Below, in pieces: positions 3,924-59,610 of a stretch of 64,000 nt of DNA. A program made the translations under genes and the position numbers. The notes under the pieces are model-generated. The model made no database searches and was not told the DNA's origin. It saw nothing but the letters and a program-made list of their open reading frames with translations. The DNA comes from Candidatus Schekmanbacteria bacterium (GTDB lineage Bacteria; Schekmanbacteria; GWA2-38-11; J061), in the NCBI GenBank assembly GCA_016219965.1, contig JACRJM010000015.1, forward strand, positions 31,857 to 95,856, given 5' to 3'. Numbering within the stretch: the stretch's first letter is position 1; the number at the start of each line of letters is the position of its first letter.

Positions 3924-3924
3924 C

Positions 3925-9296: not shown

Positions 9297-9338
9297 TTTA
9301 TTTTTATATACTGTGTGATTTAATATTAAAAAAAGTAT

Positions 9339-30295: not shown

Positions 30296-30302
30296 GAAAT
30301 TT

Positions 30303-31526
30303 ATGTTAAAAAAAAGAAATTATTTGAATTTATTTTTTTGTATTTTATTTTTATTAGCCAACCCACCTTCTTCAATTTCCAAAATATTTTATGTAAGTAA
30401 ATCTGGAAATGACCATAATCCAGGTACAAGTGAAAAACCTTTCTACTCTATTCAGAAATCAGTAGATTCTTTAAAACATGATGGAGATGAAATATTAATA
30501 TTCCCAGGAGATTATTATGAGTCGGTTTTAATTAATAATTCAAAAAAAATAATTGGCGTTAAAATAAAAAGCACAGATGAGATAGTTAATATTTTTCCAG
30601 ATGATACAAAGCCTGCATTGACTTTAAAATACGCTATTAATTGGAGAATTGAGGGAATAAACTTTTGCGGAAATAATGCAAAAGATATTGTATTAATATA
30701 TAGGTCACCCGGAAGCATTATAGAAAATTGTATGGTTAGTGGTGGCAGTAGCAGCAGCATTGCTTTCAGAGCTGTATATATTCTGAGTTCACCAAACTTT
30801 GTAATAAGTAACTCCACAATTGATGCATTTTCTGAGAATAACATAATGGCTTTTATGTCAGAGAACTTGTTAATTAAAGGAAATAATTTGAGCAATTCGA
30901 ATGCTATAACAATTGGTTTTGATGCAGGATGTAATTATACTGTTTGCGAAGAAAATTATATACACGATAGACTCTTGCCTGGAATAAAAGAAAGAGTAAT
31001 TATTCAGTGCAGAGAAAACATTGGTTCAACGATAAGACGCAATCTGATTGTTGAAAGACAAGATAACTCTTTCTTAGATGCGATTTTGATAAGAGGACCT
31101 GGAAATCCTTCAAAAAGCGTTTTGGTTGAAAATAATACATTGATTGGTCCTTCATCGCAGACGGCCATTGGGATTGCAGCGAACACATTGTCATCTGTAT
31201 GCAGAAATAATATTGTGGTTGGATTTAGAAATGCTATAAAAGTTAAATTTCCTTCTACACCATTAGCTAAACCTGAAGTTAAAGTGGATTGTAATGATTT
31301 CTATAATATCGCTGGTTCAGTTTATGATGATAATGTTGGTCTATGTAAGATAGGTAGCGCAAATATATCGAGTGACCCACTTTTTTCAGATACAGTGTAT
31401 TATAAGCTAAATCCAGGAAGCCCCTGTATTGACTCCGGGGATCCATCTTCAGCATTGCTCCCTGGAGGTGGAAAACGTATTGATATTGGCAGGCATGAAT
31501 ATTATCAGCAAGTGCAATTGCCATAG
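30303..31526 (+). CDS. Secreted right-handed parallel beta-helix protein (pectin-lyase-fold), paralog of the N-terminal ~400 aa of 48012-50849
   Basis: Signal peptide, then KIFYVSKSGNDHNPGTSEKPFYSIQKSVDS. Beta-helix repeat blocks align with the 945-aa paralog (ENCMVSGGSSS/ENCTVSGGSTS, EENYIHDR, IIQCR.N.GS). The ATG at 30303 is preferred over 30273, which would overlap the upstream gene. Confidence 0.55.
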   Translation: MLKKRNYLNLFFCILFLLANPPSSISKIFYVSKSGNDHNPGTSEKPFYSIQKSVDSLKHDGDEILIFPGDYYESVLINNSKKIIGVKIKSTDEIVNIFPDDTKPALTLKYAINWRIEGINFCGNNAKDIVLIYRSPGSIIENCMVSGGSSSSIAFRAVYILSSPNFVISNSTIDAFSENNIMAFMSENLLIKGNNLSNSNAITIGFDAGCNYTVCEENYIHDRLLPGIKERVIIQCRENIGSTIRRNLIVERQDNSFLDAILIRGPGNPSKSVLVENNTLIGPSSQTAIGIAANTLSSVCRNNIVVGFRNAIKVKFPSTPLAKPEVKVDCNDFYNIAGSVYDDNVGLCKIGSANISSDPLFSDTVYYKLNPGSPCIDSGDPSSALLPGGGKRIDIGRHEYYQQVQLP

Positions 31527-35449: not shown

Positions 35450-36075
35450 TAGTTATTGCATGTCTTTCTATTGTGACATGTTATTCATTATTAATATTTA
35501 AACCAAGTGACCGCTCTTTTGTCGCTCAACGCTTAAAAGAATTTCCACGAAACTTTGGCAAATGGGAATTTATAAGAGATGTGGAGATGCAAGAACAAAT
35601 AATAAGCGCACTGGACCCCAGTTCAATAGTTTTTAGAGAATATAGAAATCCTGAAGGCAAAAAAATGTGGCTTTGTATAGTGTACCACCAAAATGATAGA
35701 TGGGGTGCTCATGATCCACAAGTATGTTATAAATCGCAGGGTTGGGATATAGCAAATTATGGTGGCAAGTATGAAACCACTCAGATTCATATAAAAGAAA
35801 CAGATGTTGATATAAACAGATTCTATGTAAGCAAGGGAGGGTTTAAAGAGGTTGTTTACTACTGGTGGTTTGGTTCAAAGAAAAAACAGATGACAACAAG
35901 GTTTCAACAAATGCTTGATCTTGCCATTAATGGAGTTCTTTACGGTTATAACGACAGCGGTTTTATTCGAGTATCGATAAATCTTGAAGAAGGACACGAA
36001 GACGAATGTAAAAAGGCTGGGTATGAATTTGCAAAAGCAGTATCCTCTCTTATAGTAGCCTATCTTCCGGACTAG
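35422..36075 (+). CDS. epsI: EpsI-family exosortase-associated protein
   Basis: Starts at the internal ATG (MEKRNKKY) with an N-terminal TM. The 35251 start in the ORF track would run out of frame through the exosortase. Position immediately 3' of exosortase is typical. Confidence 0.6.
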   Translation: MEKRNKKYLIVIACLSIVTCYSLLIFKPSDRSFVAQRLKEFPRNFGKWEFIRDVEMQEQIISALDPSSIVFREYRNPEGKKMWLCIVYHQNDRWGAHDPQVCYKSQGWDIANYGGKYETTQIHIKETDVDINRFYVSKGGFKEVVYYWWFGSKKKQMTTRFQQMLDLAINGVLYGYNDSGFIRVSINLEEGHEDECKKAGYEFAKAVSSLIVAYLPD

Positions 36076-44255: not shown

Positions 44256-44287
44256 GTTAGCGAGCGAATATAATTAAATGACAAAAT
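44256..44287 (+). repeat. Copy B of the 32-nt repeated element, overlapping the start codon of the histidine kinase gene
   Basis: GTTAGCGAGCGAAT ataattaa ATGACAAAAT; the ATG at 44278 is the annotated start of the kinase. See copy A. Confidence 0.5.
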
Positions 44288-45522
44288 CCATAGATATGAA
44301 TAATCCCCCAACTTCCGCTACGAGCGTTTCAAATGGATCATCTGAAAAAAATAATCTATTTTATGAAAAAGAGTTTGTAAGAAGAATTTTCACCATTCTT
44401 TTCCTGCTCGTCGGAGTAACTACAATACATTATACTACTCCGTTAGCTTTTACACAGTATCATTATGTTTTTGCCAGAATGTACTATATCCCAATAATAC
44501 TTGGCTCCTTCTGGTATGGTCTGAAAGGAGGGTTCATAGTATCATTTTGTTCGGCAGTACTTTATGGCCCTCATATTTTCTTCCAATGGCGGACAGCCGG
44601 CATGGGCACATTAAACGAATACCTTGAGATAGCGATTTATATGGCTGTAGGTATTGTTACAGGTTTTATGGCTGATCAGGAGAAAGTTCTGAGATTTAAG
44701 TATCAGAAGGCTGCTGATGACCTTGAGAAATCCTATGAAAAACTTAAGGAGCAGGCAAGACAGCTCCTTGAAAAAGAACAGCAACTTATACGAGCAGACA
44801 GACTTGCCACTATGGGGGAGCTTGCTGCAAGTTTAACCCATGAGGTTAGAAATCCTCTCGGCTCAATATTGGGGAGTGCGGAGATACTTAAGGATGACTA
44901 TAAACCGGGTGACGTGAAATATGAGTTTCTTGAAATAATGATAAAAGAAGCCAACAGGTTAGACAGAGTAATTAATAACTTTTTGTCATTTGCACGGTCT
45001 AACAAACCTGATATCAAGGAATTTGATATTAATTCCTCGATCCTTGACATAAAGGAACTTGTGGAAATTGGAGCTGCTAAAAAAGGTATAACCATCAACA
45101 CAAACCTTGATGGCAAAATAGGGAAAATCAATGCCGACGAAGAGCAGATAAAACAAGCTATTTTAAATGTTCTTTTAAACTCCATCCAGGCCATGGATAA
45201 AAATGGGAGAATCACTATTTCCACGTTCCAAGAAAGCAGCGGGACCTCTGCAAGAGATTTATCTGAACAGGAAATTACAGTCGGGAAAATGCCTGCTGTG
45301 CAATGTGTCAATATATCGTTTACCGATAATGGCTCAGGTATAATTCCGGAAAACATGGAAAAAATCTTCAATCCTTTTTTTACTACAAGAGAGAACGGCA
45401 CTGGATTGGGACTTTCCATAACACGAAGAATAATAGAAAATCATAGAGGTTCTATTCATGTGCAGTCAAGAGTGAATGAGGGTACTACTTTTGTTATTAA
45501 ACTTCCTCTCAGGGAATTTTGA
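44278..45522 (+). CDS. Sensor histidine kinase (four-TM N-terminus, HisKA + HATPase; NtrB/AtoS-like)
   Basis: H-box LTHEVRNPLGSI and ATPase boxes (NLDGKIGK..., DNGSGI, GTGLGLSI). The true start may be the Met at 44296. Confidence 0.75.
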   Translation: MTKSIDMNNPPTSATSVSNGSSEKNNLFYEKEFVRRIFTILFLLVGVTTIHYTTPLAFTQYHYVFARMYYIPIILGSFWYGLKGGFIVSFCSAVLYGPHIFFQWRTAGMGTLNEYLEIAIYMAVGIVTGFMADQEKVLRFKYQKAADDLEKSYEKLKEQARQLLEKEQQLIRADRLATMGELAASLTHEVRNPLGSILGSAEILKDDYKPGDVKYEFLEIMIKEANRLDRVINNFLSFARSNKPDIKEFDINSSILDIKELVEIGAAKKGITINTNLDGKIGKINADEEQIKQAILNVLLNSIQAMDKNGRITISTFQESSGTSARDLSEQEITVGKMPAVQCVNISFTDNGSGIIPENMEKIFNPFFTTRENGTGLGLSITRRIIENHRGSIHVQSRVNEGTTFVIKLPLREF

Positions 45523-46889
45523 AAATGGATAATTCTGACATAAAGATATTGTTGATTGATGATGACGACAGTCTGAGGAGGGTTATAGAACATAATCTTT
45601 GCGAAGAAGGATATAAAGTTATTTCAGCTTCCGGAGGCAGTGCCGGAATAAAAATCCTGATGGAGAGCGAGTTTGACATAGTAATTACTGATTTGAAGAT
45701 GCCTGACATTGACGGCATGGAAGTTCTCGGGACTGTTAAATCCCATAATAAGGATATACCGGTTATTATGATAACTGCATTTGGCACCATAGAACAGGCA
45801 GTCGCTGCATTAAAATCCGGAGCTTTCGATTATCTTACTAAACCTTTTAACCGCGACGAACTTAAAATAACTGTAAAAAAGGCACTTGAACTTAGAAGCC
45901 TGCGCGGTGAGAATTTAAGGCTGAAGGCTGAGCTTTCAGGAAAATTCAGTTTTGATTCGCTTATCTATGGAAGCCCTGTTATGAACGATATAGTTGAACT
46001 GCTCCGTAAGGTGTCTTATTCAGATTCAACTGTAATGCTTCTCGGGGAGAGTGGGACAGGAAAAGAACTTATAGCAAAAGCCATTCACTACAACAGCCCG
46101 AGAAACAAGGGGCCATTTGTGATAGTAAACTGCGCTGCTATACCTGATGAACTTTTGGAAAGCGAGCTTTTCGGACATTCTAAAGGTGCCTTTACCGGAG
46201 CTTACAGCGAAAAAAAAGGAAAGTTTGAATATGCAGATTCAGGGACAATTTTTCTCGATGAAATTGGGGATCTGAAACCTTCCCTGCAGGCAAAGCTGCT
46301 TCGTGTATTGCAGGAAAAAAAAATAGACAAGGTCGGCAGCTCCGTACAGGTTGATGTTGATGTGAGGATAATTTCTGCGACTAACAGGGATTTAAAAAAA
46401 ATGATTTCAGATAGTTTGTTCCGGGAGGATCTGTTCTACCGTCTCAGCGTAATTCCGGTAAGGATTCCGCCTTTGCGTGAAAGAAGGGACGATATCCCTC
46501 TCTTGCTGGACTATTTTATTAAGAAAAACAGCAAACAAAGAAAGCTTGTGGTAACTTCGGAAGCCCTTGCAATACTAACTAATTACAGCTGGAGAGGGAA
46601 TGTAAGAGAGTTAGAAAATCTCATTGAAAGGCTTACTGTCATTAAAAGTGATTCCACTATAATACCAGCGGATCTGCCCGAAGAAATGACTTCATGTTCA
46701 TCTGTTGCAGGAGGTGTTATTTGTGCTTTACCTGAAGAAGGACTTTCTCTCGATGAACTGGAGCGGGATATTATTTTAAAAGCCCTTGAAAAAAATGAAT
46801 GGAATCAGTCAAAGGCAGCGAAATATTTGGATATGACCAGGCCTACGCTTATATACCGTATGGAAAAATATAATATTAAAAAACCTTAA
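45519..46889 (+). CDS. Sigma-54-dependent response regulator (NtrC family: REC-AAA+-HTH)
   Basis: REC (DLKMPDIDG), GESGTGKE, GAFTGA, ESELFGH and a C-terminal Fis-type HTH. Overlaps the kinase stop by 4 nt. Confidence 0.85.
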   Translation: MKMDNSDIKILLIDDDDSLRRVIEHNLCEEGYKVISASGGSAGIKILMESEFDIVITDLKMPDIDGMEVLGTVKSHNKDIPVIMITAFGTIEQAVAALKSGAFDYLTKPFNRDELKITVKKALELRSLRGENLRLKAELSGKFSFDSLIYGSPVMNDIVELLRKVSYSDSTVMLLGESGTGKELIAKAIHYNSPRNKGPFVIVNCAAIPDELLESELFGHSKGAFTGAYSEKKGKFEYADSGTIFLDEIGDLKPSLQAKLLRVLQEKKIDKVGSSVQVDVDVRIISATNRDLKKMISDSLFREDLFYRLSVIPVRIPPLRERRDDIPLLLDYFIKKNSKQRKLVVTSEALAILTNYSWRGNVRELENLIERLTVIKSDSTIIPADLPEEMTSCSSVAGGVICALPEEGLSLDELERDIILKALEKNEWNQSKAAKYLDMTRPTLIYRMEKYNIKKP

Positions 46890-47495: not shown

Positions 47496-47840
47496 TTATT
47501 TCTGCTCTTGAACCTTGGCTGCTTTGCCAAATTTACTGCGAAGATAATAGAGTTTTGCCCGCTTTACGACACCTTTTTTGGAGATCGTGATTTTTTGCAG
47601 AAGCGGTGAAAAAACCGGGAATATTCTTTCTACACCGATACCGTTTGATATCTTTCTGACGGTAATAGTTGACCTGGGACCCTTGTTCTTTATGGCAATT
47701 ATAGTTCCTTCGAATACCTGTATCCTCTCCTTGTCACCTTCAAGGATTTTAAAGTGGACCTTTACTGTATCGCCAGGTGTATACTGCGGATAATCTTTAG
47801 AATATTTTTCACCTGTAAACTGATCAATCGTTTCAAACAT
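47496..47840 (-). CDS. rplS: 50S ribosomal protein L19
   Basis: 114 aa, conserved bL19 sequence (GDTVKVHFKI.EG.KERIQ.FEG..I, KRAKLYYLR). Confidence 0.9.
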   Translation of the reverse strand: MFETIDQFTGEKYSKDYPQYTPGDTVKVHFKILEGDKERIQVFEGTIIAIKNKGPRSTITVRKISNGIGVERIFPVFSPLLQKITISKKGVVKRAKLYYLRSKFGKAAKVQEQK

Positions 47841-48011
47841 GATTTAAGTCTCCTGAAAAACTGAAAAACATATGTAATCTAACGCCAGATGTTTGTCAAA
47901 TAAATTATTATTACTTTTTCAGTATTATTTAAAAAGTGACAACAAAAAAAAATTAATGTATTTTCTTACTTTATTCAATAAATTGTAGATGAATAGCAAA
48001 GCGAGGTACTC

Positions 48012-50849
48012 ATGAAATACAAAAAAATATTCTATATGTTTATTTTGATGCTGATTGCTATCAGTGCATGGACGTTCGAAGCCGGAGCAGAAATATTCTA
48101 TGTTTCCAAGACAGGAGATAACAGCAATGATGGGTCTGCCATTGCTCCTTTTCTTACAGTACAGAAAGCTATTGATTCGCTGACTGCGGATGGTGATGAG
48201 GTATGGATATCGCCTGGTGACTATAATGAAGCAGTTATATCGGGTAATACTTCAACTGATAGATTACGGAATATTAAGGTAAAAGGAACTGCTGATGGAG
48301 TAATTATAACTGCACCGGCGACTAAATCTGCATTCAAATTAAATTATGCTGATAACTGGGTTTTACAAAATATTAAGTTAGTTGGTAATGGGGAAACCAG
48401 TAATGTAATAGTGGATGTGATGCAATCTCCAGGTGCACGCATTGAAAATTGTACGGTAAGCGGTGGAAGCACCAGCAATATTTGTTATAGGGCTGTTTAT
48501 ATTCTCAGTTCGCCAAACTTCATAGTTAAAAACTGCACGATTGATGCATACTGCGAAAATAGTATTTTCAGTTCGGAATCCAATAATTTACTGATTAAAG
48601 GGAATGATGTTAGTAATGCAGACTCTATTACAATAGGTTTTGATAAAGGATGCGATTATACGACGTGTGAAGAGAATTATATTCATGACCGGATTACACC
48701 GGGGCAGAATGAGAAAGTTATCATTCAGTGCAGAGATAATGTCGGTTCAATACTAAGGAGGAATTTGATTGTAGAATTTAGCACTTCTTTCCTTAATGCA
48801 ATACTGGTAAGAGGACCTTCAATCCCGGCAGAGGATATCACAGTTGAAAATAATACATTGATAGGTCCAGGAGCACAGACAGGTATAGCATTTGCTGCTA
48901 ACTCTTTATCATCAATCTGCAGGAATAATATTGTCTCCGGTTTTTATTATGCGGTAAGGACTCTTTATCCGTCATCTGAATTACCTAGCCCGGAGGTTGA
49001 GCTCAATTTTAATGATTTTTATGACTGCACGACCTCTGTTAGCAATACCGTTAATTTATTTAATATAGGAAGTTCAAATATATCGAGTGATCCCTTATTT
49101 GCCGACACAGCGGAATACCGGCTAAGTGAAGGAAGTCCCTGTATTGATACTGGAGATCCGGCTTCATTGGTACCGACTGGTGGAGGGACAACTGTTGATA
49201 TGGGCCGATGGGAATACAGGGATTCTATTTATGAGAATAATCAATCCAGCATTTATCTTTCATCAATCTTGATTGATTTTGGAACAGTTGAAGATGGACA
49301 GACTAAATCCATTGATTTGACATTAAGCAATGAGGGGAATGCTGATCTCTCTGTATCATCAATTGGTATAAGCGGAAGTTCAGCCTTTACTTTGAATTCT
49401 TCACCTGCGGTGCCTTTTACCATTACTGCTGAAGCCTCAATTACTCTGCAGGTTGATTATAAGCCGATAGAAGCCCTATCTGATACAGCAACGATAATTA
49501 TTACCAGCAACGATCCTGATCAGGGGACAGCATCTGTTTTACTCACCGGAACCGGCACTCCAAGCGTTGTACCTCATATAAGTGCAGATAAAGAATCTTT
49601 AGACTTTAAAACAGTAATTGTAGGTTCATCAAGAACTTTATCCGTTACTATAAGTAATACGGGAATTGATGATCTCGTAGTCTCAAATTTACTGATTTCA
49701 GGAAGTTCTCTATTTGACCTTAACGAACTTGTCCCGGAAACACCATTTACGGTTTCAATCGGTTCATCGGTGATAATACCGGTTGATTTTGTCCCTTATA
49801 GTGCTGAACCAAGTGCAGGAACTCTCACTATTGAGAGTGATGACCCCGACCAGCCTGAGCTTGATGTATCGCTTAGCGCTGAGGGTTATGATTTAACAGT
49901 AAAGCCCAAGATCAATGTCAGCACTGAATCTTTGGACTTCGATAAAGTAGTTTATGGTTTGACAAGTACATTGACAGTAATTGCAAGCAACACCGGAAAT
50001 ACCGCATTGTCCATATCAAATATTTCGATTACAGGGAGTTCAGACTTTTCTTTGGCTGAACTAGATATGACATTTCCCTATTCAGTGCCTTTTGGTTCAT
50101 CCCTTAACATACCGGTAATTTATAATCCTTCAGGTATTACTCCAACCAGTGCTACCATTACTATTAACAGCGATGATGAAGACGAACCGCAGGTTTCTGT
50201 ACTGCTGAATGGAGGAGGATATGATGAAGAGAATTCTCCGATAGATCTTGGTATAGAATCGTTTACAGTAGACAAACGAATAGGTTTAACAAGCACAAAA
50301 CCAATAGAAATTGGAATAACAGTCAAAAATAATGGAGTTATAAAACGAGGAAGCAGTGCTAATGTTGTCGGATTCCAGAATGATTTACAAGTTTATGACG
50401 AGACTATAGATATTTCAGGTGATAACAGTGCTTCTTATTGGTTTCCATCTTATACCCCCGAGCTTAAAGGTCAAATTCTCTGGCTTGCCAGCATAAAAGA
50501 CAGCAGCGATGAATTTAAACAGGAAACAGCGATGACTTATGTTTTTTCCGGAGATGTGTCTCCGGTATGGGTGACCCCAAACAAGACAAGCATTGCAGCA
50601 GATGAAAAAATGACATTTAAAGCATTTATAACAGGAAAGAAGATAAAGAAAAAAAATCTTGCATGGTATGTGAATAATATTCCCGGTGGAAACAGCACTG
50701 TGGGAACGATAAAGCCTTCAAAGAACAGAAAGAGCGGTGTTTATACAGCACCTTCTGTACTGCCGTATCCATCTACAGTTGTAATAACATTTGTAAATAA
50801 GAAAAAAACATCGCAATACGGAAGTGCTGAGGTAACAATTGAAGAGTAG
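48012..50849 (+). CDS. Large secreted protein: N-terminal right-handed beta-helix (paralog of 30303-31526), three tandem ~105-aa choice-of-anchor-D-like Ig-type repeats, then a C-terminal Ig-like region
   Basis: Signal peptide. Residues ~30-400 align with the EPS-locus beta-helix protein. Three repeats share the pattern L/IDFG.V..G......T.SN.G...L.VS.I.I.GS..F.L.....PF...........V.Y.P......A..TI.SDDPDQ. No PEP-CTERM or other sorting tail at the C-terminus. Confidence 0.6.
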   Translation: MKYKKIFYMFILMLIAISAWTFEAGAEIFYVSKTGDNSNDGSAIAPFLTVQKAIDSLTADGDEVWISPGDYNEAVISGNTSTDRLRNIKVKGTADGVIITAPATKSAFKLNYADNWVLQNIKLVGNGETSNVIVDVMQSPGARIENCTVSGGSTSNICYRAVYILSSPNFIVKNCTIDAYCENSIFSSESNNLLIKGNDVSNADSITIGFDKGCDYTTCEENYIHDRITPGQNEKVIIQCRDNVGSILRRNLIVEFSTSFLNAILVRGPSIPAEDITVENNTLIGPGAQTGIAFAANSLSSICRNNIVSGFYYAVRTLYPSSELPSPEVELNFNDFYDCTTSVSNTVNLFNIGSSNISSDPLFADTAEYRLSEGSPCIDTGDPASLVPTGGGTTVDMGRWEYRDSIYENNQSSIYLSSILIDFGTVEDGQTKSIDLTLSNEGNADLSVSSIGISGSSAFTLNSSPAVPFTITAEASITLQVDYKPIEALSDTATIIITSNDPDQGTASVLLTGTGTPSVVPHISADKESLDFKTVIVGSSRTLSVTISNTGIDDLVVSNLLISGSSLFDLNELVPETPFTVSIGSSVIIPVDFVPYSAEPSAGTLTIESDDPDQPELDVSLSAEGYDLTVKPKINVSTESLDFDKVVYGLTSTLTVIASNTGNTALSISNISITGSSDFSLAELDMTFPYSVPFGSSLNIPVIYNPSGITPTSATITINSDDEDEPQVSVLLNGGGYDEENSPIDLGIESFTVDKRIGLTSTKPIEIGITVKNNGVIKRGSSANVVGFQNDLQVYDETIDISGDNSASYWFPSYTPELKGQILWLASIKDSSDEFKQETAMTYVFSGDVSPVWVTPNKTSIAADEKMTFKAFITGKKIKKKNLAWYVNNIPGGNSTVGTIKPSKNRKSGVYTAPSVLPYPSTVVITFVNKKKTSQYGSAEVTIEE

Positions 50850-50919
50850 CGCATTAAAACTTCTCAAAAAAAGGGAAGGGTTGCATCTTCAGTCAGAGAC
50901 GATGTTAAAAAATAGTTAA

Positions 50920-51486
50920 TTAAGCTTTTCCCAATAGTCTGTCAATTATAATTGCAGAGGCAGCCCTGACTGATAAGTGGTTGTAATCCGTATTCCCTGT
51001 TATTGGTTCAAGAATTATGTCAGCTTTTGTTATTATTTCTTCAGTCATGCCCCATCCTGTCCCAAAAAGAATGAATACTGGCCTGGGTGTTTCTCTGATC
51101 ATTTCTCTTGCGGACTTGAAACTTATATTCCCTTCGATATTACGTGCAGCCGTTGCGATTGTCAGAGGCATTGAACCATCAGCAGATTGTATGTTTTCTA
51201 TAACTTCATCAATATTTTTTTTAACCTTCACGAGGCTCAGTGCTTTTGCTCTTAATGGGTTTTGTTTTGCACCTGTTCCAATTGTCCAGTGATTGATTAT
51301 TTTATTAAGGAGTTCCTCTTGCAGGTCAAAAGGGGTTATCATAAATACCTTCTCAATGCCGTAAGTCATTGCTGTCCTCGATAAGTCATGGATGTCAAGA
51401 TTTGTAATTGATGTTCCTATGATATTCCCGTCTTTGCCGAGAATAGGGTAATGGAGAAGACCTATATAAGCTCTGGTGTCAGTCAT
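50920..51486 (-). CDS. Putative SPOUT-class RNA methyltransferase-like protein
   Basis: C-terminal NHLSVRAASAIIIDRL resembles SPOUT motif III. Co-oriented with trmD and overlaps it by 8 nt. Family assignment uncertain. Confidence 0.35.
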   Translation of the reverse strand: MTDTRAYIGLLHYPILGKDGNIIGTSITNLDIHDLSRTAMTYGIEKVFMITPFDLQEELLNKIINHWTIGTGAKQNPLRAKALSLVKVKKNIDEVIENIQSADGSMPLTIATAARNIEGNISFKSAREMIRETPRPVFILFGTGWGMTEEIITKADIILEPITGNTDYNHLSVRAASAIIIDRLLGKA

Positions 51487-52228
51487 CTTTTTCTGTTTCT
51501 TTCATTAACTTTTCGAGCAATGCTTTGTCTTTATCAGAAAGTTTAACAGTTTCTAAAAGATCAGGACGTCTTTTCATGGTCCTCCTAAGCGATTCTTTAA
51601 TCTTCCACTCATTGATTTGCTTATGATTCCCTGAAAGCAGCACGTCTGGGACTTTCATTCCCTGGAACTCTGGCGGACGGGTATACACCGGAGAGCTTAA
51701 AAGTCCATTGAAGAATGAATCATTCTCCGCAGATTCAATATTCCCTAAGGTGCCCGGCAGCATTCTCATCACTGAATCGATGACGACCATAGCCGGCAGT
51801 TCTCCGCCGGTAAGCACATAGTTTCCTATGGATATTTCATGATCAACGATACTTTCCCTCACACGTTCATCAATACCCTTATACCTTCCGCAAAGGAGGA
51901 TCAGACTCTTTTCTGCTGCCAGTTCTATGGCTTTTTTTTGGCTGAAAAGCTCTCCATCAGGGGTGAGAAAAACTGTTTTGGCAGATTTAGAAACATCCCT
52001 TGTTTTTAGAGCCGTTATGCATCTGGTTATAGGTTCCGGTTTCATAACCATTCCGGCCTCTCCGCCGTACGGGTAATCATCCACTACTTTATGCCTTCCC
52101 TCTGCATAGTTTCTCAGATCAACTATGTCTATTCCTGCTATCCCCTTTTCGATTGCTTTACTGATTACGCTCTGTTCAAGGTATGATTTGAAGGCTTCGG
52201 GGAATATCGTAATAACGGTGAAAAACAT
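51479..52228 (-). CDS. trmD: tRNA (guanine37-N1)-methyltransferase
   Basis: ITIFPE, DDYPYGGEAGMVMKPEP and LLCGRYKGIDERV motifs; ~250 aa. Confidence 0.85.
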   Translation of the reverse strand: MFFTVITIFPEAFKSYLEQSVISKAIEKGIAGIDIVDLRNYAEGRHKVVDDYPYGGEAGMVMKPEPITRCITALKTRDVSKSAKTVFLTPDGELFSQKKAIELAAEKSLILLCGRYKGIDERVRESIVDHEISIGNYVLTGGELPAMVVIDSVMRMLPGTLGNIESAENDSFFNGLLSSPVYTRPPEFQGMKVPDVLLSGNHKQINEWKIKESLRRTMKRRPDLLETVKLSDKDKALLEKLMKETEKDD

Positions 52229-53399: not shown

Positions 53400-54572
53400 T
53401 TAATTTGAAATGGTTATCTCAGCCTCATTTGAGCTAAGAGATGTTATCTCGTCCTTGACATAGGGTTTACCGATATAAGCTTCCACCTTGTAAGTGTAGG
53501 TTACCGGCGCGGAACTGACGCTGACTGTATCGGTGTAGGTTGTAATCGTGTTGGTAAGTATTATCTGATCGGGGGTGCTGACCGTATGTGAGATTTTTTC
53601 AAACCCCACTGAATCACTGCTTTTCCTGAATATTATGTATCCCTGCTCAATGTCGCTGTTATCTAACCATTGAAGGATTAATGAATTACTGCTCCCTGCA
53701 TCTGTAATGACTGAAATATCTGTAGGGATATCTAAATCAGAAGGTAATTGCTCTTCCCATGTTGCCCACACGCTTATTTTTCTATGATTCATGTCCTTTT
53801 TCTTAAGGCCGGTATTGATTTTGAACCTCTTTGTTTCTTTATATTTTAAGACATTATCCCTTGAATTGCCGTATATGACATCACTGCTTCCTTCCTTTTG
53901 TGAGCCAAAGAAAAGAATTTCACCATTACTTGTGTCTTTTATTTTTACATATATGGTGGTATTCCATATATCAAGGCCTGAGTTGTTGGTTATTTTTCCA
54001 TAAACTTTCTTGTTTCTTAATGTAAACTTACCGGACCCGACGGGTTCTATTTTTATATTTTTATTATTGACGCGCAGAGGAAGTGTCTGGTTTTTATTTG
54101 ATGTTGGTTGAATTTCTATTACACCCAGGGTATTTGTCATTGCGTCAAAATTAACCGAAAATGTCCCTTTCTCTCCCCTTTTAATTGTAGAAGTTACAAT
54201 GCTTTCTGTTGAATAAACAAGCCTCCTCGGTTCATCTCCGGTTACTGATACATTTTTTGAACTGATTGGCGACCCATTACTATCCTTTAAAATGACATTT
54301 ATTTTTACATCAGTAAGCCAGCTATATTTTTTTTCTTTTTTGCTTTGCACTTCTCCGTACACATGAAACTTATTCCCCTTTTGAATTACATTTAGACTGT
54401 CTTCAATGATTTCTATTTTTTTGTCATCATCAATAATCTTTATTTTTCTGCTGTCTATTGTGACTTGGCCAGGTGTTCCGACACAGCCGCTCTGTGCTCT
54501 GTCACTCCTCACTGTTCCAAGAAGCGGAAGCACCAAGGTGATTATCATTATAATTTTACTTATCTTTTTCAT
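53400..54572 (-). CDS. Secreted hypothetical protein with a C-terminal fibronectin-III-like domain
   Basis: Signal peptide and a C-terminal ~90 aa with an FN3-like pattern (LILQWLDNSD...GYIIFR...YTYKVEAY). Inserted between ffh and rpsP. Confidence 0.4.
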   Translation of the reverse strand: MKKISKIIMIITLVLPLLGTVRSDRAQSGCVGTPGQVTIDSRKIKIIDDDKKIEIIEDSLNVIQKGNKFHVYGEVQSKKEKKYSWLTDVKINVILKDSNGSPISSKNVSVTGDEPRRLVYSTESIVTSTIKRGEKGTFSVNFDAMTNTLGVIEIQPTSNKNQTLPLRVNNKNIKIEPVGSGKFTLRNKKVYGKITNNSGLDIWNTTIYVKIKDTSNGEILFFGSQKEGSSDVIYGNSRDNVLKYKETKRFKINTGLKKKDMNHRKISVWATWEEQLPSDLDIPTDISVITDAGSSNSLILQWLDNSDIEQGYIIFRKSSDSVGFEKISHTVSTPDQIILTNTITTYTDTVSVSSAPVTYTYKVEAYIGKPYVKDEITSLSSNEAEITISN

Positions 54573-55945: not shown

Positions 55946-58687
55946 TTACTCTGCCGGAGGACCGGGAACAGGAGTGGGCAGAATAGGCTCTTCCTTTTTT
56001 TGTACAACAGGTTCAGTTGGAGGAATCTCTGTCTTTTTTTCAGCCTCTGTTTTCTCCGGTCCTTGAGTTACTGCAAGGACTGGTTTATCCGCAGGTTTCA
56101 CTTTCATCTCTTCTGCAGTAACTGACTTGTTAGTAGGCTTTACTTCCATTTCTTCTGCAGCAGGTTTTTTTACTTCTGTTTTATGAGCGGGTGCTTTCTC
56201 TTCAGCTCCGGGTTCCTGTTCCTTCTGAGGTGTCTGTTCGAGAAGTTTTGATTGATCATCAAGCATAGGAATTGGAGCGTCATCCTTCCAGAACTTGTAT
56301 TTGCCGTCTATGATTGTCCTGTAGAATATATCTTTTTTGTTTTCATCATCTTCCCTGAACTTTTTAGCAACCTCTTTTTTATCCTTTGAAAGTTTTGCGA
56401 ACTCGACAGGTGTGTTTATTATTGTAGGTTTCAGAAAAATAAGAAGATTTGTCTTTTCTTTCGTGTTGCTTGTTTGTGAAAAGAACCAGCCTATCCATGG
56501 AAGGTCTCCGAGACATGGGATCTTGGTAATGCTCGGTGAATTGGTTTCCCTGATAAGTCCGCCTATTACGATTGTTTCCATATCTTTAACAACTACGGTT
56601 GTCTTTGCTTCCCTTTTTGATGTTTCCACCCCCTGATCTGATGTTGAACCGGGAATGACATTTTCAACTTTCTGTTCCACTGTCATTTTCACAAAGCCGT
56701 CTTTATTGATGTGCGGAGTAAGCTTCAAGTTTAATGCCACATCCCTGAACTCGAAGGTATTTACCGTGTTTGCAGTGTCCGACACAATTGTTGAACTGCG
56801 TATGAACCTCCGGTTCTCGCCAACAGTTATCTCTGCTTCTTCATTATCTGCAGTTATTATCTGCGGCTGGGCAAGGACATTCACGCCGCTTTGAGTTGCA
56901 AGGGCAGTTCCAAGAGCCGCAATGTTCAATACCTGTGTCCCGTCTGCCAGTGTGATAAGACCCTTGGTTATTGCAACAGAGGCTCCCGAAGGCAATGTCG
57001 GGATTTTACCTGCTGTTGTAGAAAGGAGTCCCTGGAGAGAACTGAAATTGGTCAGACCTATTGCCCTCACCTTGTTCAGAGGATTGCTTGCGTCTTCAAG
57101 GTCTTTAAGCAAATTAAGTTCAACTCCAAGTTGAACCATTTTGTTCTCACTGACTTCAACTATAAGGGATTCAACAAAGACCTGCGCTTTCATTATATCA
57201 AGCTTGGCAATAATGTCTTTAAGGAGCAGGTAGTCTTCGGCAGAAGCTGATATGATAAGGGCATTAGTTGATTTGTCAGCAGATATGATAACATCTCTTC
57301 CGAATAGCGGCGCTGACGGTTGTGCTTCTCCGGGTTTCGCTGCACCTGTGGTTCCTGCTTTTGGGGCTTTGCTTACTATCCCGTTTAAAACTCCGGCAAG
57401 ATCTTCAGCTACTGCATTATTAAGATAATAAACATTCACTTTGCTTGTTCCCTTTTCAACAGGAGAATCAAGCTTTTCAAGCAGCTCTTCTATCCGCTTG
57501 GTGGTCTGTAAGTCAGCTACTATTATAAGTGCATTTAGTCTTTCATCAGGTATTATTTTGGGTCCTTCAGCTTTGCCTCCGCCTGACGTGGTACCTGGTT
57601 TTGCCCCCTTTACGCTTTCTACGCCAAGTTTTAATGCCTGTTCCAATATGTCTTTAAGTTCACTTGAAAGCGATTTTGCAGAGGCATTTTTAAGAGGCAG
57701 TACAGTTATAACAGGTCTTTCCTCAAGCCCTGCCACATCGATTGCGTCTATTATTTTAAGAAGCCGTTTTATATTCTCTGCTGTGTCGCTTATGATAAGA
57801 GTGTTTGTAGGACTATATGATGAGATGGTTCCTGTCTTTGGGCTCACTAATTGCGCTACCGCACCTTTGATCTGTTCCGCACTTGCATATTGAAGGTGTG
57901 TAACATAGGTTATTAGCTGTGCCGAGTCAGGCAGTTCCTTCCCGTCTTTGCCTAGTATTGTATCTATTGCACCCTGCCTTGCATCCAGTGCTTTTACTAT
58001 CCTTATTGATTCTTTGCTTTCAATAACGTTATATCCCCGGTAATCGAGGACTGAAAGAAAAACATTCCAGGCTTCTTCCTTTGAAAGTTTTTTTGGTGCA
58101 ATTATTGTTATCTTGTCGCGAAATGTATCGTCATAGATCATGTTCTTTCCCATGAGGTCTGAGAACATGGTTATCAGATCTTTGACCTCACCTTTGAAAT
58201 CAAGAGTGATGAACTCTCCCTGCTGCGCGATGTTAGTCTTTGGAGGATTGCCTGGCTGAGGTGGTATAGGTGATGCCACCGGAGCAGGTCTTGGCGGCAT
58301 CGGCGGTCGTGTAGGAGCTGCGGGTTTTTGAGCTGCGGCATTATCTGCTTTTACGGCACGTTTTTCTGATGGAGTCATCTTTGTTTCTTGCTGCTCATCG
58401 GCCTCTGTCTCTTCCTCACTGTCAGCTTCTTCTTCGTCATCAGAGCTATCTTCTTCATCTTCAGCATCCATCTCATCATCATCTGCTTCTACTTCTTTTT
58501 TCATGCTGCCGGCTGGTTTTGCAGGTGCTGCCGGTTTTCTGAGAGTAGAAACTATAGGTTTTTTCTTTGGCTGGTCATTGTTATCTTTCCCGTATGTGGA
58601 ACCTTTTGAAAGGAGGAGAAGTAAAATAATACAAAGCAGGGACATTAAAACTCTTTTAATATCATTCACCTTATTTCCCTTTAGCAT
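55946..58687 (-). CDS. Secretin (GspD/PilQ family) with acidic/Pro-rich N-terminal and Lys/Glu/Pro-rich repetitive C-terminal extensions
   Basis: Signal peptide, N0/N1-type domains, and a secretin domain ending ...NLLIFLKPTIINT. About 150 aa of low-complexity sequence at each end, with tandem AEEM-VKP repeats in the C-terminal tail. Confidence 0.7.
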   Translation of the reverse strand: MLKGNKVNDIKRVLMSLLCIILLLLLSKGSTYGKDNNDQPKKKPIVSTLRKPAAPAKPAGSMKKEVEADDDEMDAEDEEDSSDDEEEADSEEETEADEQQETKMTPSEKRAVKADNAAAQKPAAPTRPPMPPRPAPVASPIPPQPGNPPKTNIAQQGEFITLDFKGEVKDLITMFSDLMGKNMIYDDTFRDKITIIAPKKLSKEEAWNVFLSVLDYRGYNVIESKESIRIVKALDARQGAIDTILGKDGKELPDSAQLITYVTHLQYASAEQIKGAVAQLVSPKTGTISSYSPTNTLIISDTAENIKRLLKIIDAIDVAGLEERPVITVLPLKNASAKSLSSELKDILEQALKLGVESVKGAKPGTTSGGGKAEGPKIIPDERLNALIIVADLQTTKRIEELLEKLDSPVEKGTSKVNVYYLNNAVAEDLAGVLNGIVSKAPKAGTTGAAKPGEAQPSAPLFGRDVIISADKSTNALIISASAEDYLLLKDIIAKLDIMKAQVFVESLIVEVSENKMVQLGVELNLLKDLEDASNPLNKVRAIGLTNFSSLQGLLSTTAGKIPTLPSGASVAITKGLITLADGTQVLNIAALGTALATQSGVNVLAQPQIITADNEEAEITVGENRRFIRSSTIVSDTANTVNTFEFRDVALNLKLTPHINKDGFVKMTVEQKVENVIPGSTSDQGVETSKREAKTTVVVKDMETIVIGGLIRETNSPSITKIPCLGDLPWIGWFFSQTSNTKEKTNLLIFLKPTIINTPVEFAKLSKDKKEVAKKFREDDENKKDIFYRTIIDGKYKFWKDDAPIPMLDDQSKLLEQTPQKEQEPGAEEKAPAHKTEVKKPAAEEMEVKPTNKSVTAEEMKVKPADKPVLAVTQGPEKTEAEKKTEIPPTEPVVQKKEEPILPTPVPGPPAE

Positions 58688-58692
58688 ATTTA

Positions 58693-59610
58693 TTAGTCCT
58701 TTAATTCATAATTCAGTGTAATATTTCTTCCGCCGCGCTCTACCTCTACAGTAATAGAGCTCTCTTTTGAGAGACTCTGGTAAGCCTGATAAGCATTTTC
58801 CGGCTTTTCAATTCTCATACCATTGATACTTTTTATAACATCACCATTTATGATTCCTATCTTTGACATTATGCCTCCGGGCTTTATCTGTGATACCCTG
58901 AACCCCTGAGCCTTGTCTCCCGCCATTACAGGCTCAAGGCGCATTTGCTTCATGAAATCTCCCATATTGTCAAGGTGGAGCGATGACCGTTCTATCACAC
59001 GTCCTTTCTCTGCAACCGGAGCCGGAGGATTGACTGGTTTGCCTGCTTTACCCGGAGCGGAAAATTTATTTATAACATTTACCGGTGCGATGTCCAGCAC
59101 AAGCTTTTCAATGTTTCCGTTAAGCTCAAGCACTACGGCACGTTTCAGAATGCTTAAAACCCTTCCTCCGTTGATTGGCGAATCCACATGGTAAGAATTA
59201 ACATCTTCTCCCTTTCTTATGACAGCTATGTTGGATTTTTTATCGTCTTTTTTGTCACCCTGTGTTGTGCCAACGAGCTGGAGTCCTGACTGAGAAAGCG
59301 GTATTGTATCAAGATTGATATTTTTCAAATCTATTTTTTTAAGATTTGCCTGCATGCTGCTTTCAGCCGGCGTATGGAATATGTCGCGATCGACAATAAT
59401 CTTATAGTCATTTATTGTGGAAGGTACCGACTGAATTTGAGTCTCTTCCTTTTTTTTTTTCTCTTCAACTGCGGCGGGCTTTGATATACCCGGAATTATA
59501 ACAATCTTAAGAAGAGCTGATGTTATGTCTGCAAGTTGGTAGCAGAAAATAGTTATCAGAATAAGGTAAACTGCCCCAAAATTTTTGCCAATCTGTCTTA
59601 TGTATTCCAT
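58693..59610 (-). CDS. GspC-like protein (N-terminal TM + C-terminal PDZ domain) associated with the secretin
   Basis: Single TM, Lys/Glu linker, and a PDZ motif (GFRVSQIKPGGIMSKIGIINGDVIKSINGMRI). Sits 5 nt upstream of the secretin gene. Confidence 0.5.
   Translation of the reverse strand: MEYIRQIGKNFGAVYLILITIFCYQLADITSALLKIVIIPGISKPAAVEEKKKKEETQIQSVPSTINDYKIIVDRDIFHTPAESSMQANLKKIDLKNINLDTIPLSQSGLQLVGTTQGDKKDDKKSNIAVIRKGEDVNSYHVDSPINGGRVLSILKRAVVLELNGNIEKLVLDIAPVNVINKFSAPGKAGKPVNPPAPVAEKGRVIERSSLHLDNMGDFMKQMRLEPVMAGDKAQGFRVSQIKPGGIMSKIGIINGDVIKSINGMRIEKPENAYQAYQSLSKESSITVEVERGGRNITLNYELKD

What the first reader, a model, noticed from the sequence alone, without database searches (positions are those of the whole stretch)
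48012..50849. 945-aa secreted beta-helix / triple choice-of-anchor-D-like repeat protein inserted, on the opposite strand, into the conserved trmD-rplS ribosomal cluster
The N-terminal ~400 aa are paralogous to the beta-helix protein inside the EPS locus (30303-31526), with the same FYVSK-G-N-DGS...P-.-.-QKAIDS start and the same beta-helix rungs. Three tandem ~105-aa repeats follow at nt ~49240-50225, sharing a DFG.V..G... / SN.G...L.VS.I...GS..F.L / DDPDQ pattern reminiscent of choice-of-anchor-D / ASH-type Ig domains. These usually precede PEP-CTERM or other sorting tails, but this protein ends without one (…SAEVTIEE). After the repeats comes a distinct ~200-aa C-terminal Ig-like region.

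The gene separates rplS from trmD/SPOUT, which are normally contiguous, and points the opposite way. Its beta-helix fold suggests a polysaccharide lyase, hydrolase or depolymerase, or an adhesin, that could act on the EPS made by the neighbouring locus.
Basis: partly seen in the sequence, partly recalled or inferred. Interest (0 to 1): 0.65.

Follow-up and report, generated by a model that had tools for sequence, protein, structure and literature searches.

The report
Secreted beta-helix protein splitting trmD–rplS
A 945-residue secreted protein, made of a sugar-cutting-type beta-helix followed by five Ig-like domains, has been inserted backwards between two normally adjacent ribosome-related genes of an uncultured Schekmanbacteria-like bacterium; the insertion is real, the protein is an ordinary kind, and it probably trims or loosens the cell's own slime polysaccharide.

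Summary
ORF 48012-50849 (+) encodes a signal peptide, a right-handed beta-helix (AF2 pLDDT 88.7), three choice-of-anchor-D Ig domains (NF012200, 148.5 bits against a cutoff of 45), and two further beta-sandwich domains. There is no sorting tail. The beta-helix is 53% identical (E=8e-145) to a 407/417-aa paralog inside the XrtA/PEP-CTERM exopolysaccharide locus of the same window.

The gene is a clean, lineage-specific, single-gene insertion. In 56 other loci carrying both trmD and rplS, rplS follows trmD or the SPOUT gene directly on the same strand in 55, and a glutamate dehydrogenase intervenes in one. Schekmanbacteria-like relatives share the whole surrounding gene order without this gene. 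A ~94%-identical relative does carry it.

The fold matches polysaccharide lyases and hydrolases (Pel9A, the VPS lyase RbmB, PL6/PL31, GH136) and phage depolymerases. The likeliest role is a secreted glycan-active enzyme working on the organism's own EPS. Catalysis and substrate are inferred, not shown.

This is a new member of a known kind. The beta-helix subfamily is very rare: five cluster representatives among 5.8 billion, plus one partial ortholog. Interest is modest.

The parts
48012..50849 (+). Whole gene: 945-aa secreted multidomain protein (mature ~98 kDa, pI 4.3)
   Evidence: ORF list. RBS GAGG upstream. Identical protein P0001 is called on Logan contig SRR12113407_288383. dN/dS is 0.16 against the ortholog in L085.
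48012..48089 (+). Sec-type signal peptide, MKYKKIFYMFILMLIAISAWTFEAGA|EIFYV (basic n-region, hydrophobic core, A-x-A cleavage motif, no lipobox Cys)
   Evidence: Read directly from the sequence. No signal-peptide predictor was available, so this is an inference.
48090..49226 (+). Right-handed parallel beta-helix domain (aa 27-405) with a C-terminal cap resembling choice-of-anchor Q (below that model's cutoff). Family-invariant ionisable residues are D178, E220, E221, H225, D226, E234, R241, R249, R250, E255, R267, E279, R304 and D335.
   Evidence: Pfam Beta_helix 37.1 bits (cutoff 25.9), with weak NosD and DUF1565 hits. AF2 pLDDT 88.7, pTM 0.89. Foldseek PDB hits include Pel9A, RbmB, PL6/PL31, GH136, GH120 and AlgE4. 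Profile against PDB sequences. Invariant residues.
49239..49562 (+). Choice-of-anchor-D / ASH Ig-like domain 1 (aa 410-517)
   Evidence: NF012200 and ASH/HYDIN-type Pfam hits. Repeat alignment. AF2 pLDDT about 90.
49563..49898 (+). Choice-of-anchor-D domain 2 (aa 518-629)
   Evidence: Best NF012200 stretch, 508-613. 46% identical to domain 3.
49899..50222 (+). Choice-of-anchor-D domain 3 (aa 630-737). This copy is absent from the 872-aa ortholog P0002, which has only two.
50232..50561 (+). Module A (aa ~741-850): a beta-sandwich domain of a widespread family not covered by Pfam. It also occurs as stand-alone secreted proteins and in tandem.
   Evidence: No Pfam hit at E<=10. Exhaustive HMMER finds 1791 proteins at E<=1e-3 for modules A and B together, many matching only profile positions ~10-118. 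Examples P0296, P0311, P0230. AF2 pLDDT 68-86.
50577..50846 (+). Module B (aa ~856-945): terminal Ig-like domain (Big_2 / I-set-like repeat family)
   Evidence: Relatives carry up to 17 tandem copies and are themselves recognised by I-set, Ig_3, Big_2 and PKD_3. AF2 predicts all-beta at lower confidence, pLDDT 50-76.
30303..31526 (+). Short paralog (beta-helix only, own signal peptide) inside the XrtA/PEP-CTERM EPS operon, between GT4 glycosyltransferases
   Evidence: 53% identity, E=8e-145. Context. The syntenic ortholog P0042 is 91% identical. dN/dS 0.19.
47841..48011 (.). Divergent 171-bp AT-rich intergenic region (24.6% GC) between rplS and the inserted gene. It must now carry the promoters for both. 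Weak sigma-70-like matches lie at 47936-47964 (+) and 47933-47904 (-).
   Evidence: The promoter matches are no more frequent than in shuffles, so they are only candidates.
50850..50919 (.). Convergent 70-bp intergenic region between the inserted gene and the SPOUT gene, with no convincing intrinsic terminator on either strand
   Evidence: Terminator scan. Folding z-scores of -1.3 and -0.5.
47496..47840 (-). rplS (L19), cut off from its usual upstream partners by the insertion
   Evidence: Pfam Ribosomal_L19, 150 bits.
50920..52228 (-). SPOUT RNA methyltransferase (PF09936) and trmD, the other side of the insertion point
   Evidence: Pfam, 242 and 209.5 bits.
55946..59610 (-). T2SS secretin GspD and GspC, a possible outer-membrane export route for the folded protein (inferred only)
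   Evidence: Precomputed Pfam hits on the source contig. The same genes keep the same position in relatives.

Best explanation
The gene encodes a Sec-exported, probably extracellular, modular protein. An N-terminal pectin-lyase-fold beta-helix is the working part. It is most likely a polysaccharide lyase or hydrolase. It is carried on a stalk of three choice-of-anchor-D Ig domains plus two more beta-sandwich domains, which act as spacers and/or matrix- or cell-surface-binding modules. There is no covalent sorting signal.

The most likely substrate is the exopolysaccharide made by the XrtA/PEP-CTERM locus that ends 4 kb away. The stalk-less paralog sits inside that locus and would be the periplasmic processing enzyme. 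On this view the long form is the released or matrix-resident version, used for remodelling or dispersal, analogous to RbmB for Vibrio VPS.

The gene reached its present place by a single-gene insertion on the opposite strand into the SPOUT|rplS junction of an otherwise conserved block (T2SS, ffh, rpsP, KH, rimM, trmD, SPOUT, rplS, rnhB, RR, HK, PrsT). This happened after the lineage split from relatives that are ~60% identical at the protein level and before the split of two ~94%-identical strains.

Shown: architecture, fold, paralogy, insertion, purifying selection. Inferred: secretion route, catalysis, substrate.
For: Architecture and domains.

Fold: the AF2 model has pLDDT 88.7. Foldseek matches are almost exclusively carbohydrate-active beta-helix enzymes. 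These include Pel9A (TM 0.63/0.61), the RbmB VPS lyase (TM 0.60/0.63, rmsd 4.0), PL31 and PL6 alginate lyases, GH136, GH120, GH87 and AlgE4, plus phage tailspike/depolymerase-type proteins. A family profile also finds PL6, PL9 (5olq, 1ru4) and PL31 enzymes by sequence.

Likely functional groove: fourteen family-invariant ionisable residues are concentrated in the central rungs, aa 178-335.

Link to polysaccharide metabolism:
- The paralog lies between glycosyltransferases in the XrtA locus, and this placement is conserved in a relative.
- The only other long-form ortholog, P0002, is followed by three PIG-L deacetylase-family genes, a GT2 and a GDSL-like gene.

Insertion:
- 55 of 56 loci have rplS directly after trmD or SPOUT on the same strand.
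- L087, L089 and L090 keep the whole surrounding synteny without the gene.
- L085, at 94% nt identity, has it.

Functional gene: dN/dS is 0.16.
Against: - No catalytic residues could be assigned, and sequence alignment to Pel9A in the catalytic rungs is unreliable.
- RbmB is matched by fold only, not by sequence.
- The beta-helix domain is acidic (pI 4.4), whereas RbmB binds its substrate in a basic groove (PMC12993940). The composition of this organism's EPS is unknown.
- No sigma-54 promoter or other sign of co-regulation with the EPS locus lies upstream of the gene.
- The short-form relative P0043 sits in a non-EPS context, among nuo and cyt bd genes.
- The beta-helix fold also occurs in non-enzymatic adhesins.
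- That L001 (P0002) and L087 come from one genome is assumed only because they are from the same sample.
Confidence: 0.55

Rival explanations
1. It is a non-catalytic surface or matrix protein, meaning an adhesin, lectin or scaffold. The beta-helix only binds a glycan or a surface, and the Ig-like domains form a stalk, as in beta-helix adhesins and Ig-repeat surface proteins.
For: The five-domain Ig-like half resembles beads-on-a-string adhesion and S-layer proteins such as cadherins, SbsB and HYDIN-type ASH arrays. No catalytic residues were identified. Choice-of-anchor-D domains are typical of surface proteins (the names of hits).
Against: The closest folds and the sequence-profile hits are enzymes, not adhesins. 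The stalk-less paralog sits inside a biosynthetic operon, which fits an enzyme better. A dense invariant cluster of acidic, basic and His residues lies in the central rungs.
Confidence: 0.2
2. It is a nutritional CAZyme that degrades foreign polysaccharides (pectin-, alginate- or rhamnogalacturonan-like) for carbon acquisition, and is unrelated to the cell's own EPS.
For: Profile hits to PL9, PL6 and PL31 enzymes, which are mostly catabolic. The weak N-terminal match to PelN. The gene lies outside the EPS operon and has no sigma-54 promoter.
Against: No sugar transporters, uronate catabolism genes or PUL-like neighbours are present. The paralog is embedded among glycosyltransferases. The ortholog sits next to polysaccharide-modification genes. 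The PelN score is 29 bits against a cutoff of 740 and covers only the N-terminal cap.
Confidence: 0.12
3. It is an EPS-modifying epimerase of the AlgG/AlgE type rather than a depolymerase. It would change sugar configuration in the polymer after export.
For: Foldseek hits to the AlgE4 A-module. A weak profile hit to AlgG, E about 4e-4. An invariant Y-I-H-D motif (aa 223-226) loosely recalls the DPHD motif of these epimerases; the motif is recalled from my own knowledge of AlgG/AlgE4.
Against: The matches to AlgG and AlgE4 are weaker than those to lyases and hydrolases. The motif is not DPHD. Nothing indicates a uronate polymer.
Confidence: 0.08
4. The arrangement is ancestral rather than an insertion, and relatives lost the gene.
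For: Only a few genomes of this candidate phylum are available. The junction is variable, since a gdh gene sits there in L088.
Against: This would require independent precise losses in L087, in L089/L090/L091 and in all 50 or so other lineages examined. The ortholog P0002 lies at a different locus, without rplS or SPOUT beside it.
Confidence: 0.03

Closest known systems
RbmB, the Vibrio cholerae VPS lyase (PDB 9ozd/9ozl; PMC11637428, PMC12993940)
   Same: A single right-handed beta-helix of similar size, matching with TM 0.60/0.63 and rmsd 4.0. It is a signal-peptide-bearing enzyme encoded with the biofilm-matrix genes and cleaves the cell's own exopolysaccharide. This is the role proposed here for the long and short pair.
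   Different: No sequence similarity is detectable. RbmB has no Ig-like stalk. Its catalytic K227 and basic groove (PMC12993940) could not be mapped onto the target. The target's helix is acidic overall.
Pel9A / polysaccharide lyase family 9 (PDB 1ru4; also 5olq)
   Same: Best full-length structural match among characterised enzymes, TM 0.63/0.61. The family profile aligns end to end with 1ru4, E=1.2e-13. It shares the N-terminal cap motif (YV...G.D.N.G...PF.T...A......GD.I....G.Y). The precomputed Pfam annotation is Pel9A-like_beta_helix.
   Different: Identity is about 15%. The PelN equivalog model scores 29 bits against a cutoff of 740 and covers only the first 80 residues. My own Pfam scan did not return PF22842. 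The Ca2+-binding Asp cluster and catalytic Lys are not identifiable from the alignment.
Choice-of-anchor-D domain proteins (NCBIfam NF012200; ASH / HYDIN-type Ig domains)
   Same: Three bona fide copies well above the cutoff. Other proteins in the database also combine Beta_helix with these domains, for example P0006, P0018 and P0029.
   Different: Such proteins typically end in one of several sorting tails (PEP-CTERM, T9SS CTD, LPXTG). This one ends in two further beta-sandwich domains and has no tail, even though an exosortase system is encoded 12 kb away.
Phage tailspike / EPS-depolymerase beta-helices
   Same: Same fold class, with many BFVD hits at TM 0.6-0.7, including pectate-lyase-superfamily tail proteins.
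   Different: No phage genes, no trimerisation or particle-binding domains, and a Sec signal peptide. The context is chromosomal housekeeping genes.
AlgG / AlgE4 mannuronan C5-epimerases
   Same: A beta-helix enzyme dedicated to the cell's own EPS and encoded in the EPS operon (this applies to the short paralog). Weak fold and profile matches.
   Different: Weaker matches than to the lyases. The motif is YIHD, not DPHD.

Membership tests
Choice-of-anchor D domain (NF012200) | HMM score above the curated cutoff (45 bits) | tested here: met
   148.5 bits, E=8.5e-44, in 3 stretches. Supported by ASH, HYDIN_VesB_CFA65-like_Ig and Cep192_D4 hits above their cutoffs.
Choice-of-anchor D domain (NF012200) | Ig-like beta-sandwich fold | tested here: met
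   AF2 predicts three beta-sandwiches with pLDDT about 90. Foldseek matches ASH-domain arrays of ciliary central-pair proteins.
Sorting-signal-bearing surface proteins (PEP-CTERM, T9SS CTD, LPXTG) | C-terminal sorting tail (motif, then hydrophobic helix, then basic cluster, or a Por_Secre_tail domain) | tested here: not met
   The protein ends ...KKKTSQYGSAEVTIEE with no hydrophobic segment. No NCBIfam or Pfam sorting-domain hit was found. The orthologs end at the same point.
Right-handed parallel beta-helix (Pfam Beta_helix PF13229 / pectin-lyase fold) | HMM above the gathering score, and a beta-helix fold | tested here: met
   37.1 bits against 25.9. The AF2 model has pTM 0.89 and consists of stacked short strands. 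Foldseek probability is 1.00 to many beta-helix enzymes.
Polysaccharide lyase family 9 (Pel9A, PelN) | Family-level sequence similarity over the catalytic domain | tested here: not met
   The PelN equivalog scores 29.3 bits against a cutoff of 740 and covers residues 6-85 only. The single sequence finds no PL9 chain in the PDB at E<=1. Only a profile that includes distant relatives reaches 1ru4.
Polysaccharide lyase family 9 (Pel9A, PelN) | Ca2+-binding Asp cluster and catalytic Lys in the central rungs | tested here: inconclusive
RbmB-type EPS lyases | Sequence homology to RbmB, with catalytic K227 and a basic substrate groove (PMC12993940) | tested here: not met
   There is fold similarity only. 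RbmB is absent from the sequence and profile hits at E<=10. The domain pI is 4.4.
AlgG/AlgE mannuronan C5-epimerases | DPHD catalytic motif | tested here: not met
   The invariant motif is E-E-N-Y-I-H-D, aa 220-226. The profile match to AlgG is only E about 4e-4.
XrtA/PEP-CTERM EPS system (genomic context, not the protein itself) | Marker genes PrsT, PrsK, PrsR, exosortase/EpsI, TIGR03013, TIGR03007, TIGR03006 and TIGR03027 present | tested here: met
   All score above their curated cutoffs within 11519-44075. The target lies 4 kb beyond PrsT, and its paralog lies inside the locus.
trmD operon (rpsP-rimM-trmD-rplS) | Co-directional gene within the operon that is conserved across lineages | tested here: not met
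   The gene is on the opposite strand. It is absent from this position in all 56 comparison loci.

The most novel reading that the evidence does not exclude
The five-member beta-helix subfamily would be the founder of a new CAZy-type family of lyases or hydrolases specific to XrtA/PEP-CTERM-type exopolysaccharide. The short form would be a periplasmic processing enzyme and the long form a secreted dispersal enzyme. The long form's convergent, terminator-less placement against the growth-rate-driven trmD operon would couple its expression inversely to growth through transcriptional interference. The same placement would force rplS onto a new promoter.
Probability: 0.1. Interest if true: 0.5.

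Novelty: new member of a known kind. Interest (0 to 1): 0.3.

Why it matters
If the functional inference holds, the long and short pair would be the first candidate self-EPS-cleaving enzymes tied to an XrtA/PEP-CTERM (floc- or biofilm-type) polysaccharide system, in a barely studied candidate phylum. That would be useful for biofilm-dispersal enzymology and for annotating exosortase loci.

The insertion is a clear, datable example of a normally tight ribosomal and tRNA-modification operon being split by an opposite-strand accessory gene. The same junction has been hit independently by a gdh gene in a relative. This is a small point about operon plasticity, not a new principle.

Module A is a widespread domain family without a Pfam model and would merit curation.

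Tried and rejected
- A single-sequence search of the PDB gave only noise.
- A Pfam scan of the last 214 residues at E<=10 gave nothing.
- Tandem Repeats Finder saw no DNA-level repeat for the three CAD domains.
- No direct or inverted repeats flank the gene that would indicate a transposon or a target-site duplication.
- No sigma-54 promoter lies upstream of the gene, although good matches exist elsewhere in the EPS locus.
- Sigma-70 promoter and terminator scans were no better than shuffles, and folding of the convergent spacer was not significant.
- A regex scan of all six frames found no PEP-CTERM-like tails in the window. The pattern may be too strict.
- Recent foreign origin was rejected. 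The gene's GC3 of 0.30 lies between that of the EPS-locus genes (0.22-0.23) and the flanking housekeeping genes (0.33-0.45). Its closest relative is the in-genome paralog.
- Assigning catalytic residues from the HMM alignment to Pel9A was rejected as unreliable.
Full report
**Observation**

The 945-codon ORF at 48012-50849 (+) exists as described. A GAGG ribosome-binding site lies 7 nt before the ATG. The only ORF of 60 aa or more on the opposite strand inside it is a 68-aa one.

Its N-terminus, MKYKKIFYMFILMLIAISAWTFEAGA|EIFYV, has the features of a Sec signal peptide with an A-x-A cleavage motif and no lipobox. This is read from the sequence, as no predictor was available.

BLASTP against the ORF at 30273-31526 gives 53% identity over 406 residues, E=8e-145.

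The three repeats are aa 410-517, 518-629 and 630-737. They are 36-46% identical pairwise, with z-scores of 12-20 against shuffles, and carry the quoted motifs. They are too diverged to appear as DNA tandem repeats.

**Domains**

- NCBIfam choice_anch_D (NF012200) scores 148.5 bits against a cutoff of 45, in three stretches.
- Pfam gives ASH, HYDIN_VesB_CFA65-like_Ig, Cep192_D4 and DUF1573 for the same region. It gives Beta_helix (37.1 against 25.9) for aa 161-316, with weak NosD and DUF1565 hits.
- The last ~210 residues hit nothing in Pfam even at E<=10.
- An exhaustive HMMER search with a two-sequence profile of that region found 1791 proteins at E<=1e-3 and showed that it is two independent modules.
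- Module A (aa ~741-850) recurs as a stand-alone secreted protein (P0296, 134 aa; P0311, 107 aa), in tandem (P0230, P0247, P0238), or after ASH domains (P0240). It has no Pfam model.
- Module B (aa ~856-945) belongs to a family of tandem Ig-like repeats that Pfam recognises as I-set, Ig_3, Big_2 or PKD_3 in other proteins.
- The protein ends without any sorting tail. Its orthologs end at the same position.

**Structure**

AlphaFold2 on aa 26-410, with a 14-sequence alignment, gave a confident right-handed beta-helix with mean pLDDT 88.7 and pTM 0.89.

Foldseek against the PDB returned almost only carbohydrate-active beta-helix enzymes:
- GH136 lacto-N-biosidases
- pectate lyase Pel9A (TM 0.63/0.61)
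- the Vibrio cholerae VPS lyase RbmB (TM 0.60/0.63, rmsd 4.0)
- a PL31 alginate lyase and PL6 lyases
- the GH120 xylosidase XylC and GH87 glucanases
- pectin methylesterases
- the AlgE4 epimerase

Against viral models the hits are tailspike/depolymerase-type proteins.

A profile of the family plus distant relatives reaches PL6, PL9 (5olq, and 1ru4 end to end at E=1.2e-13) and PL31 enzymes by sequence. It reaches AlgG weakly. The alignment across the catalytic rungs is too gapped to transfer residues.

The C-terminal half (aa 405-945) is predicted as five beta-sandwiches. pLDDT is about 90 for the three CAD domains, 68-86 for module A and 50-76 for module B. It matches ASH-domain arrays, cadherins and an S-layer protein, which makes it a beads-on-a-string stalk.

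**Family**

Among 5.8 billion cluster representatives, this beta-helix subfamily has only five members:
- the target (P0001)
- one other long form, P0002 (872 aa, 47% identical, same domain order but two CAD domains)
- the window's short paralog
- its 91% ortholog P0042
- a short form, P0043

After these, scores fall to E about 1e-10 over only ~12% of the length, which corresponds to the cap motif.

An NJ tree of the beta-helix domains groups them by lineage, not by architecture. The clades are (target, (paralog, P0042)) with bootstrap 91.5 and (P0002 long, P0043 short) with bootstrap 100. So short forms arose more than once by loss of the stalk, or paralogs have been homogenised.

Of 381 aligned positions, 125 are invariant in all five. 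These include a run of ionisable residues in the central rungs: D178, E220, E221, H225, D226, E234, R241, R249, R250, E255, R267, E279, R304 and D335.

**Context**

The window is Logan contig SRR12113407_288383.

Positions 11519-44075 hold a complete XrtA/PEP-CTERM exopolysaccharide system. Its genes include:
- an export protein, an outer-membrane protein, a chain-length determinant and a tyrosine kinase
- the priming transferase TIGR03013 and the deacetylase TIGR03006
- a flippase-like protein, PMT_2, Wzy_C, GHL15 and a sulfatase-family protein
- several GT4 and GT2 glycosyltransferases and an acetyltransferase
- exosortase with EpsI, PrsK, PrsR, a B12 radical-SAM protein and PrsT

The short paralog lies between two GT4 genes in this operon. 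That placement is conserved in contig L004, which is 93.9% identical at nt level.

The long-form ortholog P0002 is followed by three PIG-L-family genes, a GT2 and a GDSL-like gene. P0043 lies in an unrelated context.

T2SS genes gspC and gspD lie 5 kb from the target.

**Insertion**

I fetched 80 trmD loci from GTDB species representatives and further contigs of the nearest relatives.
- Of 56 loci carrying both trmD and rplS, rplS is on the same strand in all.
- In 55 of them it follows trmD or the PF09936 SPOUT gene after 9-286 bp.
- About 30 loci, mostly Chloroflexota, have trmD without rplS nearby. The linkage is therefore common but not universal.

The nearest named TrmD proteins are from Candidatus Schekmanbacteria, at 59-63% identity.

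The Schekmanbacteria contigs L089, L090 (GCA_001790645.1) and L091, together with contig L087, share the window's whole gene order: T2SS gspC-gspD, (ffh), a secreted fn3 protein, rpsP, KH, rimM, trmD, (SPOUT), rplS, rnhB, sigma-54 RR, HK, PrsT-like. None of them has a gene between trmD/SPOUT and rplS.

Relative to these, the window differs by exactly one opposite-strand gene.

L087 comes from the same sample as the contig that carries P0002 at a different locus. There is no rplS within the 362 bp upstream of P0002 and no SPOUT gene downstream.

In L088 a glutamate dehydrogenase gene occupies the same SPOUT|rplS junction, and L086 has a 475-aa gene after SPOUT. This junction is therefore a recurrent insertion point.

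Contig L085 is 94% identical to the window. It shows trmD, SPOUT and then the 3' 364 codons of the target ortholog on the opposite strand, at 93.7% aa identity.

The insertion is thus derived. It is younger than the split from relatives that are ~60% identical and older than the split of the two ~94% strains.

No flanking repeats or mobile-element traces remain. GC3 is 0.30, intermediate between the EPS genes and the flanking housekeeping genes. dN/dS against L085 is 0.16, and it is 0.19 for the paralog against L004, so both genes are under purifying selection.

**Consequences for the operon (inferred)**

rplS-rnhB can no longer be co-transcribed with trmD without reading antisense through 2.8 kb. 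The 171-bp, 25% GC divergent spacer must supply promoters for both rplS and the new gene, and only weak consensus matches are present. The 70-bp convergent spacer has no convincing terminator. Collision between trmD-operon transcription and transcription of the target is therefore possible but untested.

**Mechanism proposed**

Sec export is inferred from the signal peptide. Passage across the outer membrane by the adjacent T2SS is speculative.

The beta-helix then binds and probably cleaves a polysaccharide. The organism's own XrtA-locus EPS is the most economical candidate, for two reasons. The paralog is embedded in that operon, and the ortholog is associated with polysaccharide-modification genes.

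The five Ig-like domains would hold the catalytic head away from, or attach it non-covalently to, the cell or matrix.

My estimates are:
- about 0.95 that the architecture and the insertion are as described
- about 0.6 that the helix is a glycan-active enzyme
- about 0.4 that the substrate is the cell's own EPS

The rivals are a non-catalytic adhesin or scaffold, a catabolic CAZyme for foreign polymers, an AlgG-like epimerase, and an ancestral arrangement. The last is essentially excluded.

**Comparison and verdict**

Functionally the nearest analogue is RbmB, a beta-helix lyase for the cell's own matrix polysaccharide encoded with the matrix genes (PMC11637428, PMC12993940). There is no sequence relationship to it. 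Membership in PL9, the RbmB family or the AlgG family is not supported.

The CAD domains are true members of NF012200. Beta-helix plus CAD architectures exist elsewhere.

This is a new, very rare subfamily member of a known kind of secreted modular beta-helix protein, sitting in an unusual but explicable place. Interest is modest.

Noticed in passing
window 53400-54572 (-); L087 6879-8705; L089 6701-8518; L090 1-1336: A 390-aa secreted protein with no Pfam family lies between ffh and rpsP. A 30%-identical, longer (605-608 aa, fn3-containing) homolog occupies the same position upstream of rpsP in Schekmanbacteria-like relatives. It is therefore a conserved 'guest' in this cluster and is not specific to the window.
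   Followed up: partly
L088 9139-10566; L086 9549-10976: In two relatives a 475-aa gene sits right after the SPOUT gene. In L088 it is a glutamate dehydrogenase on the same strand, lying between SPOUT and rplS. The junction hit by the target gene has been used independently.
   Followed up: partly
window 50232-50561 (aa ~741-850 of the target); P0296, P0311, P0230, P0247, P0238: Module A is a ~105-aa domain with the pattern VDLxI..F.V.KRI.L...KPI.I...VKNNG...QN..EVY....VS....Y.FPSYTP..G.I.W.A.I.D. Together with module B its two-module profile matches 1791 proteins at E<=1e-3, and many of these match module A alone. It often occurs stand-alone with a signal peptide or as the last domain, and it has no Pfam model. 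It is a candidate for a new domain family.
   Followed up: partly
window 9282-9297 (+) and 16456-16471 (+): An exact sigma-54 consensus, TGGCAC-N5-TTGCT, lies 42 nt before the GAF-GGDEF gene (9339). A one-mismatch copy lies before the priming glycosyltransferase gene (16501). This fits PrsK/PrsR (sigma-54) control of the EPS locus. No such site precedes the target gene.
   Followed up: no
window 44278-46889 (+); L087, L088, L089, L090: A second histidine-kinase / sigma-54 response-regulator pair is wedged between PrsT and rnhB. It scores below the PrsR cutoff and resembles AtoS/AtoC. It keeps that position in all Schekmanbacteria-like relatives examined.
   Followed up: no
beta-helix domains of the target, window 30303-31526, P0002, P0042 and P0043: The long (with stalk) and short (helix only) forms group by lineage rather than by architecture (bootstrap 91.5 and 100). 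This implies repeated loss of the Ig stalk after duplication, or gene conversion between paralogs.
   Followed up: partly
window 24597-25790 (+) and 27151-29055 (+): The EPS operon also encodes a GHL15-family putative glycosyl hydrolase and a sulfatase / alkaline-phosphatase-superfamily protein. These are further candidate polymer-modifying enzymes besides the beta-helix paralog.
   Followed up: no
L090 (GCA_001790645.1) 2819-4083: The named Candidatus Schekmanbacteria genome lacks the PF09936 SPOUT gene between trmD and rplS (gap 144 bp). The window, L085, L087 and L088 all have it. The presence of SPOUT is itself variable in this group.
   Followed up: no
window 34610-36075 (+): The longest ORFs for exosortase (34610-35449) and EpsI (35251-36075) overlap by about 200 nt in different frames. 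In the 94%-identical contig L004 the EpsI gene is called with a later start (217 aa), so the overlap is probably an artefact of taking the longest ORF and not a real feature.
   Followed up: partly
window 39680-41191 (+): A B12-binding radical-SAM gene sits between PrsR and PrsT inside the PEP-CTERM regulatory block. Its role is unknown.
   Followed up: no
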